Below are positions 39,367-52,006 of a stretch of DNA of 64,000 bases, one piece after another. Source of the DNA: Kordia sp. TARA_039_SRF (GTDB taxonomy: Bacteria > Bacteroidota > Bacteroidia > Flavobacteriales > Flavobacteriaceae); assembly GCA_006383075.2 (NCBI GenBank), contig SMNH02000006.1, positions 122,174 to 186,173 of the forward strand, read 5' to 3'. The notes below the pieces were generated by a model that was given only the letters and a program-made list of their open reading frames with translations, was not told where the DNA came from and searched no databases. Position numbers and translations under genes: made by a program. Numbering within the stretch: the stretch's first letter is position 1; every line of letters starts with the position of its first letter.

Positions 39367-40557
39367 ATGAACAGAAGAGATTTTATAAAACAAGCTTCCT
39401 TAGCAAGTACCGCGATGTTCTTGCCAAAATTCGTTTCGGGTTTTAATTTGATCGATTCCGCCGTAGCGACAGGAAAAAAATTGGTCATAATCCAATTATC
39501 AGGTGGAAATGATGGATTAAATACCGTCGTGCCCTTTCGAAATGATATTTATTTTGAAAAACGACCGTCGTTGGCGCAGCAAAAATCGAATTTGATTGGC
39601 ATTACGGATGATATTGGTTTTCATGAAAGTCTCATAGCGCATAGCGATTTGTATCATAATGGAGAATTGTGTGTGGTGAATAATGTAGGATATCCGAATC
39701 CGAATCGTTCACATTTTCGTGCTACCGATATTTGGCATACGGCGAGCGACGCTAATGAATACCTGCAATCGGGTTGGGTTGGGCGTTATTTAGATGTTAC
39801 CAAAAGTAAATCGTTAGACGCCATTGAAGTAGATGATACGTTGTCACTATTGTTGAAAGGCGAACAAACGGATGGTATTGCGACGAAAAATCCGAAGTTG
39901 TTTTTTAGAACCACACATGCACCGTATTTTAAGAAAGTGGTGCAGCATCACGATGATGCACATTTGAGCGAACACAATTTGGGATATTTGTACAAAACGA
40001 TGGTGACAGCTTCCAATTCTGCAAAATATCTATACGAAACTTCCAAAACTTATGCTTCTAAAATTGAGTATCCGAATAATGAATTTGCCAAGCAGCTTAA
40101 GCAAGTCGCGCAATTTATCAATTCAGGTTTGCAGACAAAAGTGTATTACACGTCGCTTGGTGGATTTGACACGCATGCAAATCAGGTGAACAAACAAAAA
40201 CGCTTGTTAAAGGTCTATGATGAAGCCATTGCAGCATTTATCAAGGATTTAAAACAGCAAGATTCGTTTAAAGACACGTTGATTATGACCTTTTCTGAAT
40301 TTGGGCGTCGCGTGCAACAAAACGCTGCTAATGGAACTGACCACGGAACGGCGAATCAGGTGTTTTTGATTGGAAAGCAGTTAAAAAAAGCAGGATTTTA
40401 CAATGCTATGCCCAATTTGTCCAACTTAGACGAGAATGGCGATTTAAAATTTGACGTAGATTTTAGAAAGATTTACGCATCCATTTTGAACAACTGGTTA
40501 GATGTAGATGCTACAAAAGTGATGCGTAGTTCTTTTATCGATATGAAAATCGTTTAA
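39367..40557 (+). CDS. DUF1501 family protein with twin-arginine signal
   Basis: MNRRDFIK, LSGGNDGLN, SHF, GGFDTH, SEFGRR, GTDHG, DFRKIYA. Confidence 0.93.
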   Translation: MNRRDFIKQASLASTAMFLPKFVSGFNLIDSAVATGKKLVIIQLSGGNDGLNTVVPFRNDIYFEKRPSLAQQKSNLIGITDDIGFHESLIAHSDLYHNGELCVVNNVGYPNPNRSHFRATDIWHTASDANEYLQSGWVGRYLDVTKSKSLDAIEVDDTLSLLLKGEQTDGIATKNPKLFFRTTHAPYFKKVVQHHDDAHLSEHNLGYLYKTMVTASNSAKYLYETSKTYASKIEYPNNEFAKQLKQVAQFINSGLQTKVYYTSLGGFDTHANQVNKQKRLLKVYDEAIAAFIKDLKQQDSFKDTLIMTFSEFGRRVQQNAANGTDHGTANQVFLIGKQLKKAGFYNAMPNLSNLDENGDLKFDVDFRKIYASILNNWLDVDATKVMRSSFIDMKIV

Positions 40558-40563
40558 ATGACT

Positions 40564-40719
40564 TTAAGCGCAGCAAACTCTATTGGTGCCAGCGTTGCAT
40601 TTGCTCACTTCAGATTTTTGCTCTGCTGGCGAACGAAATCCGCCAAATAAAATTGCGGTATCTAACGTAGAAATGGTTTGCTTATTCAGTTTGATGGTTT
40701 GTAAATTTCTTTTCTTCAT
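40564..40719 (-). CDS. Putative RiPP precursor, 51 aa: MKKRNLQTIKLNKQTISTLDTAILFGG-FRSPAEQKSEVSKCNAGTNRVCCA
   Basis: Translated by hand, ATG 40719 to TAA 40564; A-rich initiation region; KLNKxTISxL..GG leader; Ser/Thr/Cys core. Confidence 0.75.
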   Translation of the reverse strand: MKKRNLQTIKLNKQTISTLDTAILFGGFRSPAEQKSEVSKCNAGTNRVCCA

Positions 40720-40874
40720 GATTATAACATTTTTAGTTTTTTGAAAGGTATCAAACCAACGTGAAATTTTAGTATGGTAAAACCGTAGATGTCACAGTAT
40801 AAATCTTAAAATGTGTTAAATAGAAAAGCTTTCCGGGAGACTTTTAGTATTTTTAATCTTTATTAAAAACCGTT

Positions 40875-41426
40875 ATGAAAAAAGTCAGTTATATTCTTTT
40901 ATTAATTATTTTAATCTCTTGTAAAAGCGAAACAAAATCTTCTAAAGTTGTTGCTGAACATGTAGATGAAACGGAAAAAGTGAAAACGAATTCTACGACC
41001 AAAACAGCATCACAAACGGATATTCCTGTGTTGAATTTTGAACAGTTTGAAAAATACCTCAACATTGAAGATGATAATATTCACGTTGTCAATTTTTGGG
41101 CAACTTGGTGTGCGCCATGTGTGAAAGAATTGCCATACTTTGAAGCTGTTAACAAAGAATACAAAGACAAAAATGTAAAAGTGTTGCTAGTAAGTTTGGA
41201 TTTTAATCTAAAAAAGCTCAATGCATATTTGGCAAAAAACAAGCTGCAATCTGAACAAGTATTATTAGATGATCCAGACCAAAACGCGTGGATTCCGAAA
41301 GTATCCGAAGAATGGTCAGGCGCTATTCCGGCAACGGTGATTTACACTAAAAACAAGCGAAAATTTTACGAAGGTTCTTTTACGAAAGAAGAGCTAGAAA
41401 CTGAAATACAAAAATTTATTAAATAA
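40875..41426 (+). CDS. TlpA-like thioredoxin-fold lipoprotein
   Basis: Lipobox LISC; VVNFWATWCAPC; AIP. Confidence 0.9.
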   Translation: MKKVSYILLLIILISCKSETKSSKVVAEHVDETEKVKTNSTTKTASQTDIPVLNFEQFEKYLNIEDDNIHVVNFWATWCAPCVKELPYFEAVNKEYKDKNVKVLLVSLDFNLKKLNAYLAKNKLQSEQVLLDDPDQNAWIPKVSEEWSGAIPATVIYTKNKRKFYEGSFTKEELETEIQKFIK

Positions 41427-50401: not shown

Positions 50402-50526
50402 CTTGCGAAACTAATAACTTTGTAAGAAGCTATCTCAATACTCAATACTAACATCTCAATACTTGATAAAAGGTTGTCACCCTACGTTTGTACGGTAAAA
50501 CCTTATAAATGTTAAACTTATCAACA

Positions 50527-50623: not shown

Positions 50624-52006
50624 ATGAAAAAAAATCAACTATTTTATTTTCTGCTGATCAGTCTTTTCATTGTAAGCTGTTCAAAAGATGACATTGCTCA
50701 AGAAAATGAACAAAGTAAAGAACCTATAAAGCAAACGGTTACTGCAAAAAATCGTTCTAACTTAAAACCAATTGGTTCTGGTGTGATGATGCAAGCATTC
50801 TATTGGGATGTACCTGCTGGCGGAACATGGTGGAATGTTGTCAAAGGAAAAGTAGCCGATTGGAGCAACGCAGGAATCGATGCTATATGGCTTCCACCAG
50901 CTTCTAAAGCACAAAATGGTCCGTTCTCTATGGGATACGATCCATTTGACTATTTTGACTTTGGCGAATACAACCAAATGGGAAGTATAGAAACACGTTT
51001 TGGCTCTACAACTGAATTGCAAAGTTTAATCAATACTGCGCATACCAATCGTTTAAGTGTCATTGCTGATATTGTGTTAAATCACAACAGTGGAGGCGAT
51101 AGTGAGTACAATCCGTACAAAGGCACTAACACGTACACCGATTATCAACCATTATCTGGAAAATTCTACAGAAGTTATAATGACTTTCATCCTAACAATG
51201 TTCAAAATAATGATGAAGGTGTTTTTGGTGGATTTGCTGATTTATCACATGTTAAGGGCTATGTGCAAGATTGGTTATGGAGAACACCTAACTCAGTGGC
51301 GCAATACTATAAAAACGTAGTAGGATTTGACGGCTGGCGATTTGATTATGTAAAAGGATTTGGTCCTTGGGTAGTTAAAGACTTTAAAAATGCTGCTAGT
51401 GGATTCTCTGTGGGAGAATATTGGGACGGAAATGCTGCTACGTTAGAATGGTGGGCAAATCAAGCTGAAGTGAGTGCGTTCGACTTTGCATGTTATTACA
51501 GAATGCGAGATGCTTTTCAAGGAAATGATTTAAATCGATTAAACGACGACATGTTATGGAAGCGCAATGCATCAAAAGCAGTGACTTTTGTGACAAATCA
51601 TGATACGGATGAAATCGTCAACAATAAAATTCTCGCGTATGCGTATATCTTAACACATGAAGGATATCCAACTATTTTCTATCGCGATTATGAAGAATGG
51701 CTCAACAAAGAGCGTATGAACAACCTCATTTGGATTCACAACAATTTAGCCAGTGGAAACACTTCAATTCTCTACACAGATAATGACGAATACGTAGCAA
51801 GAAGAAATGGTTACAACGGTCCAGGATTGGTAGTGTATATCAACAACTCTAACAACTGGCAAGAGCGTTGGGTTGAAACCAATTGGTCTAGCACACGCAT
51901 CAAAGATTACACAGGGCATTCCAATTGGGAACCTGTAACGCAAGGCGGACGTTGGGTAAAAATTCAAGCACCGCCAAAAAGTTACTCTGTTTGGTCTGTC
52001 AAATAA
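50624..52006 (+). CDS. GH13 alpha-amylase lipoprotein
   Basis: Lipobox IVSC; MQAFYWDVP, ADIVLNH, DGWRFDYVKG, GEYWD, FVTNHD. Confidence 0.92.
   Translation: MKKNQLFYFLLISLFIVSCSKDDIAQENEQSKEPIKQTVTAKNRSNLKPIGSGVMMQAFYWDVPAGGTWWNVVKGKVADWSNAGIDAIWLPPASKAQNGPFSMGYDPFDYFDFGEYNQMGSIETRFGSTTELQSLINTAHTNRLSVIADIVLNHNSGGDSEYNPYKGTNTYTDYQPLSGKFYRSYNDFHPNNVQNNDEGVFGGFADLSHVKGYVQDWLWRTPNSVAQYYKNVVGFDGWRFDYVKGFGPWVVKDFKNAASGFSVGEYWDGNAATLEWWANQAEVSAFDFACYYRMRDAFQGNDLNRLNDDMLWKRNASKAVTFVTNHDTDEIVNNKILAYAYILTHEGYPTIFYRDYEEWLNKERMNNLIWIHNNLASGNTSILYTDNDEYVARRNGYNGPGLVVYINNSNNWQERWVETNWSSTRIKDYTGHSNWEPVTQGGRWVKIQAPPKSYSVWSVK

What the first reader, a model, noticed from the sequence alone, without database searches (positions are those of the whole stretch)
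40564..40719. Hidden orphan RiPP-like precursor with a double-glycine leader and Cys-rich core
Seen: a 51-aa minus-strand ORF below the track cutoff, with an A-rich initiation region. The leader is MKKRNLQTIKLNKQTISTLDTAILFGG and the core is FRSPAEQKSEVSKCNAGTNRVCCA (3 Ser, 1 Thr, 3 Cys). Known: KLxLxKxTIxxL..GG leaders typify Bacteroidota class I lanthipeptide and other GG-type precursors, normally next to LanB/LanC, radical SAM or peptidase-ABC transporter genes. None of these is in this 64 kb. Inference: a stand-alone substrate for machinery encoded elsewhere, that is, a dispersed peptide library, antimicrobial or signal.
Basis: partly seen in the sequence, partly recalled or inferred. Interest (0 to 1): 0.72.

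Follow-up and report, generated by a model that had tools for sequence, protein, structure and literature searches.

The report
Dispersed Kordia double-glycine peptide precursor
This 51-codon gene is real and conserved, and it is one of about 120 scattered genes in this marine Kordia genome that encode secreted-peptide precursors with a shared leader and unrelated cysteine/threonine-rich ends, most likely matured and exported by a single enzyme/transporter cluster elsewhere in the genome.

Summary
In detail: window 40564-40719 (-) encodes MKKRNLQTIKLNKQTISTLDTAILFGG|FRSPAEQKSEVSKCNAGTNRVCCA. It is a real gene. Orthologues occupy the same DUF1501/TlpA spacer in at least 7 other Kordia species, with dN/dS 0.03-0.6 and a conserved core motif [ST]-x-[VI]-S-x-C-x-x-G-[ST]-x-x-x-C-C-A.

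It is not a lone orphan. A leader HMM built without it scores it at E=1.8e-8 and finds 121 paralogues at 80 loci, 56 of them solitary. Leaders are 48% identical; cores are unrelated. The leader pattern occurs 56-154 times in each of 18 other Kordia genomes (81 in this one) and essentially never in 38 other genera.

No maturation or export gene of the five Pfam families searched lies in the window, but the genome has them elsewhere. One split LanB/LanC/C39-ABC/HlyD cluster is single-copy in 18 of 19 Kordia genomes. There is also a second C39-ABC exporter.

Three results favour thioether (lanthipeptide) chemistry over disulfides: Cys parity, Thr enrichment and Ser/Thr conservation. None is proof.

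A new observation is a palindrome, TACGG-N5-CCGTA, centred about 61 nt upstream. It is conserved in all orthologues and shared by 33 peptide genes plus several secreted-peptidase and type IX secreted-protein genes.

RNA data were unavailable. This scan has already noted the same family in two other Kordia genomes.

The parts
40564..40719 (-). 51-codon precursor gene including the stop codon (MKKRNLQTIKLNKQTISTLDTAILFGGFRSPAEQKSEVSKCNAGTNRVCCA)
   Evidence: Syntenic orthologues and purifying selection.
40639..40719 (-). Leader, residues 1-27. It carries the IxLxKx5L motif (I9, L11, K13, L19) and ends in Gly26-Gly27, the predicted C39 cleavage site.
   Evidence: Family leader HMM E=1.8e-8. NF038153 lant_leader_L1a at E=0.0047, below its cutoff. 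Motif described in PMC7268733.
40567..40638 (-). Core, residues 28-51 (FRSPAEQKSEVSKCNAGTNRVCCA). Conserved tail: [ST]-x-[VI]-S-x-C-x-x-G-[ST]-x-x-x-C-C-A. Unmodified monoisotopic mass is 2584.194 Da.
   Evidence: Alignment A1. Mass. No paralogous core in the same genome; best match is 31% identical.
40773..40787 (.). Palindromic box, TACGGTTTTACCATA on the gene strand (consensus TACGG-N5-CCGTA, 1 mismatch), centred 61 nt upstream of the ATG.
   Evidence: Enrichment. Conserved at the same distance in all orthologous loci while the flanks diverge.
40743..40750 (-). Putative Bacteroidota -7 promoter box (TACCTTTC, compare TAnnTTTG). This is an inference; it would place the palindrome centre about 41 nt upstream of the transcription start.
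   Evidence: Read from the sequence. A similar TAnnTT(T)G sits at the same place in the orthologues. No transcript data.
40720..40742 (-). A-rich untranslated leader (AAAAAACTAAAAATGTTATAATC), with the family-wide AAC(C/T)AAAA-like element and no Shine-Dalgarno sequence.
   Evidence: Position-specific consensus of 121 upstream regions.

Best explanation
The ORF is a functional gene for a ribosomal peptide precursor. It belongs to a Kordia-specific family of roughly 120 genes per genome. Family members share a conserved N-terminal leader (MKK+NLKSLKLNKKSISxL...GG, the Bacteroidota class I lanthipeptide-type LxLxKx5L...GG leader) and have hypervariable Cys/Thr/Pro-rich cores.

Proposed path (inferred, not shown):
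1. Transcription starts from a promoter whose upstream half is the palindrome TACGG-N5-CCGTA. An unidentified dimeric regulator probably binds there; it also controls about 33 other peptide genes and several secreted-peptidase and type IX secreted-protein genes.
2. The leader docks the precursor on the genome's single split LanB dehydratase and a LanC cyclase (contig C1, 275-280 kb). These dehydrate the conserved Ser/Thr of the core tail and link them to the three conserved Cys as thioether rings.
3. A C39-peptidase ABC exporter cuts after Gly27 and exports the 24-residue core. The candidates are the exporter in the same cluster (C1:266281) and the second one (C4:22946), each with its HlyD-type partner.

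Shown here: the gene is real, it belongs to the family, the genome holds the machinery, and the cis-element is shared. Inferred: the modification, the exporter used, the regulator, and the biological role (antagonism or signalling).
For: Gene reality:
- Syntenic orthologues and dN/dS 0.03-0.6.

Family:
- 121 members at E<0.01; the query ranks 48th; the reversed control gives nothing below 0.37.
- Leader identity is 48% and core identity 19%, against a shuffled baseline of 17%.
- The leader DNA pattern is 98% precise in this genome. It occurs 56-154 times in each of the 18 other Kordia genomes (81 in this one), zero times in 41 of 42 genomes of 38 other genera, and once in the remaining one.

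Machinery:
- One LanB (751 aa) with a separate Lant_dehydr_C protein (302 aa), a LanC (405 aa), a C39-ABC exporter (735 aa, intact DCGPTC motif), HlyD, and four precursors with LxLxKx5L...GG leaders, all at C1:266-280 kb.
- One of those precursors ends its leader in ILFGG, as the query does.
- LanB is single-copy in 18 of 19 Kordia genomes and lies 8-12 kb from this exporter in the 14 genomes where both are on one contig; it occurs in only 4 of 42 other relatives.

Thioether rather than disulfide chemistry:
- The only NCBIfam models hit by the query or by nine of the ten scanned paralogues are class I lanthipeptide leader models; two paralogues score above the cutoff.
- Family cores have odd Cys counts in 49 of 120 cases. 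A second double-glycine family in the same genome has even counts in 23 of 25 (Fisher p=0.0012).
- Cores are 12% Thr, and Ser/Thr is enriched 3-5 residues N-terminal of Cys (z up to +5.4); S+T is at least equal to Cys in 118 of 120 cores.
- In 55 orthologue-like pairs, Ser/Thr is retained at 82%, ranking just after Cys, Trp and Pro.
- The query's orthologues keep exactly 3 hydroxyl positions (with S/T interchange) and 3 Cys.

Regulation:
- 7 of the 20 perfect palindromes in the genome lie 58-68 nt upstream of family members, against 0.09 expected.
- 24 of 121 family-1 and 9 of 25 family-2 genes have the box; control windows give 0-1.
- The box is conserved in all orthologues.
Against:
- The query's match to the curated lanthipeptide leader model is below cutoff (17.1 vs 22 bits).
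- The precursors encoded inside the LanBC cluster match the dispersed-family leader HMM only weakly (E 0.02-8), so recognition by the same LanB is an extrapolation.
- No modification enzyme is adjacent to this gene or to most family members.
- The S-x-C spacing in the conserved tail would give an unusually small ring.
- The genome holds other peptide-maturation systems that could act instead: LanM, three more LanC-like genes, grasp-with-spasm, and VKOR/thioredoxin fusions.
- The parity, enrichment and conservation statistics are indirect.
- One enzyme pair serving more than 100 substrates is known for class II enzymes (ProcM, SyncM) but not for class I.
Confidence: 0.5

Rival explanations
1. 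Unmodified (or only disulfide-bonded) double-glycine peptide, a class II microcin/bacteriocin-like or signalling peptide. It would be cleaved and exported by a C39-ABC transporter with no lanthipeptide chemistry. The conserved leader would serve export only.
For: There is a GG leader and there are two suitable exporters. No enzyme is adjacent. The curated lanthipeptide leader model is hit only below cutoff. The same promoter box precedes a second GG family that looks disulfide-bonded (even Cys in 23 of 25) and sits next to C39-like/VKOR/thioredoxin fusion proteins.
Against: Three invariant Cys is an odd number. Family-wide there is no strong even-Cys bias, unlike family 2. The best-conserved leader segment, LKLNKKSISxL at positions -19 to -9, lies far from the cleavage site; that is where class I LanA recognition motifs lie (my reading, set against the classical hydrophobic -4/-7/-12 C39 positions, which I know from general knowledge). 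Ser/Thr are conserved and positioned relative to Cys as in thioether rings.
Confidence: 0.3
2. A RiPP precursor matured by a different system in the genome: LanM, one of the LanC-like proteins that lack a LanB partner, the unassigned radical SAM/SPASM enzyme, or an unrecognised enzyme.
For: The genome encodes a LanM (C5:126767-129640), three further LanC-like genes, a DUF4135 protein, two SPASM proteins and two VKOR fusions. Gao 2024 (PMC11118758) predicted many Kordia precursors as rSAM-type and noted LanC with a nucleotidyltransferase.
Against: LanM has its own adjacent precursor with an unrelated leader, which does not match the family HMM. One SPASM protein belongs to the grasp-with-spasm system (TIGR04193), which I expect, from general knowledge, to have its own substrates. 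The rSAM-target leader model TIGR04149 is not matched (best E 0.92 in 1 of 10 paralogues).
Confidence: 0.12
3. A chance ORF or decaying pseudogene with no product.
For: It is short, listed only as 'hypothetical protein' in public records, and there are no expression data.
Against: dN/dS is 0.03-0.6. Orthologues keep the frame through whole-codon indels. The core motif and promoter box are conserved across species whose flanking spacer has diverged.
Confidence: 0.02

Closest known systems
Bacteroidota class I lanthipeptide precursors with LxLxKx5L...Gly-Gly leaders (NCBIfam NF038153 lant_leader_L1a; Walker et al. 2020, PMC7268733; pinensins of Chitinophaga pinensis)
   Same: The leader architecture is the same (IxLxKx5L, then GG at 26-27). 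The core is rich in Ser/Thr/Cys. The genome encodes LanB/LanC and a C39 protease-exporter whose cluster precursors carry the same leader type.
   Different: The gene is not next to LanB/LanC. The curated leader model is matched only below cutoff. The family is about 120 genes per genome, mostly solitary, whereas described clusters have one to a few precursors.
Prochlorosins / SyncA peptides of marine picocyanobacteria (one promiscuous class II ProcM/SyncM; up to 79 precursors; many genes far from the enzyme)
   Same: It shares a conserved leader with hypervariable cores, dozens to hundreds of precursor genes scattered over the genome, a single conserved synthetase locus per genome, and a marine host (PMC7268733 and the abstract of PMC9872173).
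   Different: It has a different leader family (not Nif11) and a different enzyme class (split LanB plus LanC, class I, if used at all). It is found in Bacteroidota, has a GG/C39 exporter in the cluster, and a subset shares a palindromic promoter box. No biochemical evidence exists here.
Double-glycine peptides exported by peptidase-containing ABC transporters (class II bacteriocins and microcins, competence and quorum peptides)
   Same: There is a GG cleavage motif after a roughly 27-residue amphipathic leader, a hydrophobic residue at -4, and C39-ABC exporters with the catalytic Cys motif in the genome.
   Different: Leader conservation is concentrated at -19 to -9 rather than next to the cleavage site. 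The core has an odd, invariant Cys count and conserved Ser/Thr.
Kordia as a 'RiPP-rich genus' (Gao et al. 2024, Microbiome, PMC11118758)
   Same: It concerns the same genus and the same general statement that Kordia encodes many predicted lanthipeptide- or rSAM-type precursors.
   Different: In the text I could read, that study shows clusters with co-located enzymes or transporters. It does not describe the single leader family of roughly 100 or more dispersed genes, its restriction to Kordia, the single-copy LanBC-exporter cluster, or the shared palindrome.

Membership tests
Class I lanthipeptide precursor (LanA), Bacteroidota L1a leader type | Leader matches the curated leader model NF038153 at or above its cutoff (22 bits) | tested here: not met
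   17.1 bits, E=0.0047. Of ten paralogues scanned, two pass (25.2 and 22.3 bits) and the rest score 12.9-18.5 or nothing.
Class I lanthipeptide precursor (LanA), Bacteroidota L1a leader type | LxLxKx5L motif followed by a Gly-Gly cleavage site | tested here: met
   The query has I9-x-L11-x-K13-x5-L19 and G26-G27. The first position is Ile here but Leu in over 90% of paralogues (PMC7268733).
Class I lanthipeptide precursor (LanA), Bacteroidota L1a leader type | Core contains Ser/Thr and Cys able to form (methyl)lanthionine | tested here: met
   The core has 3 Ser, 1 Thr and 3 Cys. Three hydroxyl positions and three Cys are conserved in all 9 orthologues/paralogues of A1.
Class I lanthipeptide precursor (LanA), Bacteroidota L1a leader type | Encoded beside LanB and LanC | tested here: not met
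   The only LanB (C1:276200-278455) and its LanC are on another contig. None lies in the 64 kb window.
Class I lanthipeptide precursor (LanA), Bacteroidota L1a leader type | Dehydration and thioether rings in the mature product | not testable with these tools
   Needs mass spectrometry or heterologous co-expression. Only indirect statistics are available.
Double-glycine (GG) peptide, substrate of a C39-peptidase ABC exporter | Gly-Gly (or Gly-Ala/Ser) at -2/-1 after a 15-30 residue non-hydrophobic leader, with a hydrophobic residue at -4 | tested here: met
   G26-G27, L24 at -4, I16 at -12, and no hydrophobic signal-peptide core.
Double-glycine (GG) peptide, substrate of a C39-peptidase ABC exporter | A C39-ABC exporter with an intact catalytic Cys in the same genome | tested here: met
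   C1:266281 (735 aa, DCGPTC) and C4:22946 (731 aa, DCGPAC), each followed by a HlyD-type gene. A third exporter (C2) is of the NHLP type.
Double-glycine (GG) peptide, substrate of a C39-peptidase ABC exporter | Cleavage and export shown | not testable with these tools
   No proteomic or genetic data.
Prochlorosin-like combinatorial lanthipeptide library | Many precursor genes with a conserved leader and hypervariable cores, many far from the enzyme | tested here: met
   121 genes at 80 loci, 56 solitary. Leader identity 48%, core 19% (shuffled 17%).
Prochlorosin-like combinatorial lanthipeptide library | Nif11-type leader and a class II LanM (ProcM) synthetase | tested here: not met
   The leader is of the L1a type. 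The genome's LanM has its own unrelated precursor.
Prochlorosin-like combinatorial lanthipeptide library | One synthetase shown to process the many substrates | not testable with these tools
   Only co-occurrence is shown: a single-copy LanB in 18 of 19 Kordia genomes that all carry the family.

The most novel reading that the evidence does not exclude
Kordia runs a class I counterpart of the prochlorosin system. One conserved split-LanB/LanC/C39-exporter cluster would mature well over 100 dispersed, individually conserved precursors per genome. A sizeable subset, including this gene, would be switched on together with secreted peptidases and type IX secreted proteins through a common palindromic promoter box. 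That would make it a co-regulated extracellular arsenal, possibly linked to the genus's regulated algicidal behaviour.
Probability: 0.35. Interest if true: 0.85.

Novelty: new variant of a known kind. Interest (0 to 1): 0.62.

Why it matters
Substrate-tolerant lanthipeptide enzymes that process large natural peptide libraries are so far known only as class II enzymes, from picocyanobacteria. They are prized for peptide engineering.

This genus may offer a class I example. All 19 sampled Kordia genomes carry about 60-150 or more leader-matched precursor genes, and 18 of them a single LanB (the exception is only 82% complete). That would give a second, independent case of such a library, in heterotrophic marine Bacteroidota, and a ready-made set of hundreds of natural cores to test.

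The work also has practical lessons. Cluster-centred genome mining, which looks a few genes either side of an enzyme, misses nearly all of these genes. Public records call them hypothetical proteins.

The shared promoter box gives a handle for finding the regulator and the conditions of expression. It links the peptides to secreted peptidases in a genus known for killing algae.

Tried and rejected
- Pfam gave no hit for the peptide.
- Rfam gave nothing in 40000-41200.
- The sigma-70 promoter and intrinsic-terminator scans were at chance level or empty. The sigma-70 consensus is not the Bacteroidota one in any case.
- A single-sequence search of the 5.8-billion-protein set found only 3 orthologues, all unnamed.
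- A 7-mer enrichment search for a second shared upstream motif, run over the upstream regions of all 121 family members, found only the A-rich start-proximal element.
- A search for other palindromes at the same upstream position found only rare alternatives: AGGGGAATTTTCCCCT twice and several singletons. I could not establish a set of regulator-specific boxes here.
- I considered the neighbouring TlpA-like thioredoxins and rhodaneses as dedicated partners of this Cys-rich peptide and rejected that. Those genes are present in Kordia species whose spacer lacks the peptide gene or holds unrelated genes.
- I considered a Sec or lipoprotein signal and rejected it, because the leader has no hydrophobic core.
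- I considered the radical SAM route. One SPASM protein belongs to the grasp-with-spasm system and the other is unassigned. Neither is near a family member.
- I did not run the representative-protein search or structure prediction. A 51-residue peptide with a roughly 20-bit leader signal cannot reach significance in 1.8 billion sequences, and a fold would not discriminate between the hypotheses.

Full report
**1. The observation**

Window 40564..40719 (minus strand) holds an ATG-initiated ORF of 51 codons. It encodes MKKRNLQTIKLNKQTISTLDTAILFGGFRSPAEQKSEVSKCNAGTNRVCCA, exactly as reported. It lies in a 317-nt spacer between a DUF1501-like gene (39367..40557, +) and a TlpA/thioredoxin-like lipoprotein gene (40875..41426, +). 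In the genome assembly the window is contig C6:122174-186173. The assembly is 4.59 Mb, 36% GC, in 27 contigs.

**2. It is a real gene**

A DNA search of relatives found the same DUF1501-TlpA arrangement throughout the genus. A leader-HMM scan of those loci found a homologous small ORF in the same spacer in seven other genomes, with two tandem copies in one of them. A genome-collection scan named the genus as Kordia: K. periserrulae at 96% amino-acid identity, K. zhangzhouensis at 80%, plus several Kordia MAGs.

The orthologues are 43-52 aa and differ by whole-codon indels. They share an invariant core tail, [ST]-x-[VI]-S-x-C-x-x-G-[ST]-x-x-x-C-C-A. dN/dS is 0.03 for the closest pair (dS 0.61, dN 0.02) and 0.08-0.63 for the other unsaturated pairs. 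Public records call the orthologue a hypothetical protein, for example WP_156168384.1.

**3. It is one of a very large family**

phmmer of the peptide against all ATG-initiated ORFs of 25-130 aa in the genome gave 108 distinct ORFs at E<1. All have a MKK(R/K)NLKSLKLNKKSISxL...GG leader and unrelated Cys-rich tails.

An HMM of the first 24 residues of 59 paralogues, built without the query, scores the query at E=1.8e-8 (rank 48). It finds 110 ORFs at E<1e-3 and 121 at E<0.01. Reversed sequences give nothing better than 0.37.

The 121 genes lie at 80 loci, 56 of them solitary. Mean pairwise identity is 48% in the leader and 19% in the core, against a shuffled baseline of 17%. The query's core has no paralogue in its own genome; the best match is 31% identical.

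A degenerate DNA pattern for the leader is 98% precise with 65% recall in this genome. It occurs 81 times in this genome and 56-154 times in each of the 18 other sampled Kordia genomes. It is absent from 41 of 42 genomes of 38 other genera and occurs once in the remaining one. The backwards control pattern gives zero everywhere except a single match in one non-Kordia genome.

A profile search of the large protein collection returned 291 hits. The named ones are almost all Kordia 'hypothetical protein', with two UniRef labels, 'Bacteriocin' and 'Natural product'.

**4. Machinery elsewhere in the genome**

None of the searched enzyme families has a hit inside the window. On contig C1, at 266-281 kb, the following lie together:
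- a C39-peptidase ABC exporter (735 aa, catalytic DCGPTC motif) and a HlyD-type protein;
- three precursor genes with LxLxKx5L...GG leaders;
- two membrane TPR-AraC regulators;
- a fourth precursor;
- a separate Lant_dehydr_C protein (302 aa), a LanB (751 aa) and a LanC (405 aa);
- an anti-sigma/ECF-sigma pair.

One cluster precursor ends its leader in ILFGG, as the query does.

A second C39-ABC/HlyD pair sits at C4:22946. It follows a different GG peptide and two TPR proteins. A third exporter, on C2, is of the NHLP type and lies beside an NHLP-leader peptide.

The genome also has:
- a LanM with its own unrelated precursor;
- three more LanC-like genes;
- a grasp-with-spasm maturase;
- two fusion proteins of about 520 aa (518 and 520), the one scanned with Pfam combining a degenerate C39-like domain with VKOR.

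Across the genus, LanB is present exactly once in 18 of 19 genomes; the exception is only 82% complete. In the 14 genomes where both genes are on one contig, LanB lies 8-12 kb from a 738-743-aa C39-ABC exporter. Only 4 of 42 non-Kordia relatives have a LanB. So the family expansion and a conserved single LanBC-exporter cluster coincide at genus level. That is correlation, not proof of coupling.

**5. Modified or not?**

The only NCBIfam models hit by the query are class I lanthipeptide leader models. The query itself scores below cutoff (17.1 vs 22 bits). Of ten paralogues scanned, two score above the cutoff; one also gave a non-significant match (E 0.92) to an rSAM-target leader model. Walker et al. 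2020 describe exactly this leader type, LxLxKx5L ending in GG with a C39 protease in the cluster, for Bacteroidota class I LanAs.

Four indirect tests favour thioether over disulfide chemistry:

- **Cys parity.** The genome has a second GG-leader family of 25 genes (MLKNIxxLxGxxxLxKxEQxxIxGG). Its cores have even Cys counts in 23 of 25 cases (p=2e-5), are Gly/Tyr-rich and contain only 5% Thr. Family 1 cores have 49 odd and 71 even counts and 12% Thr (Fisher p=0.0012).
- **Ser/Thr position.** In family 1, Ser/Thr is enriched at -5, -4 and -3 relative to Cys (z +5.4, +3.1, +2.6). S+T is at least equal to Cys in 118 of 120 cores.
- **Ser/Thr conservation.** In 55 orthologue-like pairs of family 1 cores, conservation is Cys 98%, Trp 92%, Pro 85%, Thr 77% and Ser 75%, with Ser/Thr kept as a hydroxyl residue in 82%. 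The overall figure is 71%. Ser and Thr are normally among the most exchangeable residues (general knowledge of substitution matrices).
- **The query's own motif.** It keeps three hydroxyl positions, two of them interchanging S and T, and three Cys.

Against this, the cluster-encoded precursors match the dispersed-family leader HMM only weakly (E 0.02-8). No class I enzyme is known to serve so many substrates. I put lanthipeptide maturation at about one half.

**6. A shared promoter box**

Aligning the 121 upstream regions on the ATG showed an A-rich AAC(C/T)AAAA element at about -20 to -12. Several members also have a palindrome further upstream.

TACGG-N5-CCGTA occurs 20 times perfectly in the genome. 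Seven of those are centred 58-68 nt upstream of family members, against 0.09 expected. Of 110 one-mismatch sites, 15 are so placed, against 0.5 expected. With up to 2 mismatches at 55-72 nt, 24 of 121 family-1 genes and 9 of 25 family-2 genes carry the box. Control windows give 0-1.

The query's box is TACGGTTTTACCATA at window 40773-40787, centred 61 nt from the ATG. The box is present at the same distance in every orthologous locus, although the surrounding spacer has diverged. In the tandem pair it precedes the first gene only.

A TAnnTT(T)G-like element about 22 nt downstream resembles the Bacteroidota -7 box. If it is one, the palindrome is centred about 41 nt upstream of the start site. 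That is the position of class II activators, but this is an inference from general knowledge, with no transcript data.

The same box precedes several other genes:
- at 65 nt: three paralogous type IX secreted proteins (endosialidase-chaperone domain plus Por tail) and an M14 carboxypeptidase;
- at 52-87 nt: an M57 metallopeptidase lipoprotein, a NusG paralogue and a TPR-AraC regulator.

A perfect copy also lies 162 nt upstream of the peptide gene that heads the C4 exporter locus.

The regulator is unknown. The genome has 16 membrane TPR-AraC proteins. Six have a GG-peptide gene within 3 kb, against a random expectation of 2.0. None is in the window.

**7. The site is variable**

In other Kordia species the same DUF1501-TlpA spacer varies. 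It is nearly empty (24-86 nt) in some. In others it holds an unrelated family-1 peptide, a 145-aa secreted protein or a 196-aa gene. The neighbouring thioredoxin and rhodanese genes are therefore not dedicated partners of this peptide.

**8. Prior knowledge**

- Gao et al. 2024 (PMC11118758) call Kordia a RiPP-rich genus. They show clusters with co-located enzymes or transporters and a similarity network of precursors.
- Silva et al. 2023 (PMC10734526) state that knowledge of Kordia metabolites is scarce.
- I found no description of the single dispersed leader family, its genus restriction, or the palindrome.
- Earlier agents of this scan reported the same family in two other Kordia genomes. 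One report gave about 320 members and 46 TPR-AraC sensors. This is therefore a repeat observation within the scan, on different DNA. The dependence of the family on a distant LanBC-exporter cluster was reached independently here.

**9. Verdict**

The gene is a new, conserved member of a known kind of precursor. The system it belongs to is a class-I-type, genus-wide library with a shared promoter box, which makes it a new variant of a known kind. The chemistry and function remain to be shown.

Noticed in passing
window 50491-50505: Another copy of the box (TACGGTAAAACCTTA, 1 mismatch) lies 126 nt upstream of a 460-aa lipoprotein that looks like a GH13 alpha-amylase, judged from the sequence only (50624..52006). 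The distance differs from the 58-68 nt seen at peptide genes, so this may be chance.
   Followed up: partly
window 40722-40730 (minus strand): A three-codon mini-ORF (ATG TTA TAA) sits 2 nt upstream of the precursor's ATG.
   Followed up: no
G000 contig C4:18001-26456: A perfect palindrome is followed by a 48-aa GG peptide of another type (…EAMKKVMGG|GGYGAHCCIPKNMN) with its own terminator-like hairpin. Then come two TPR proteins of about 750 aa, a C39-ABC exporter and HlyD. It looks like a peptide-signal or export module and may belong to the same regulon.
   Followed up: partly
G000 contig C3:446530-448608 and C7:124529-126091: Two proteins of 518 and 520 aa carry a VKOR domain; the C3 one, scanned with Pfam, also has a degenerate C39-like domain lacking the catalytic Cys motif, and its C-terminal part looks thioredoxin-like by eye. 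The C3 one directly follows a box-preceded family-2 GG peptide. This suggests a dedicated disulfide-forming partner for the even-Cys family.
   Followed up: partly
G000 contig C3:479662-484123: A LanC-like gene (420 aa) lies with two genes of about 350 aa, one kinase-like by eye. Upstream is a 290-aa Cys/Thr/Gly/Pro-rich repeat protein (…GPTGTYGCTQPGHCVGPTGTQGCTQP…). This may be the LanC-plus-nucleotidyltransferase module mentioned by Gao 2024.
   Followed up: no
G000 contig C6:107869 (14 kb before the window start): A grasp-with-spasm SPASM peptide maturase (TIGR04193, E=1e-108), which marks yet another RiPP system in this genome.
   Followed up: no
L017, L020, L026, L019, L027 (orthologous DUF1501-TlpA spacers): The spacer is a variable spot. 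Different Kordia species hold this peptide, a tandem pair, a different family-1 peptide, a 145-aa secreted protein, a 196-aa protein, or almost nothing.
   Followed up: partly
G000 contigs C1:602530, C1:604313, C7:160527, C4:357992, C3:247399, C8:141104: The same box, mostly 65 nt from the ATG, precedes three type IX secreted paralogues (one scanned with Pfam), an M14 and an M57 peptidase, and a NusG paralogue that lies inside a peptide-rich region.
   Followed up: partly
G000 contig C21:14150-14718: Two family members have cores made of 9-10 repeats of T-x-x-C-P (for example DTLACP, ETIACP). These are the most lanthipeptide-like cores of the family and are good first candidates for biochemical tests.
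   Followed up: no
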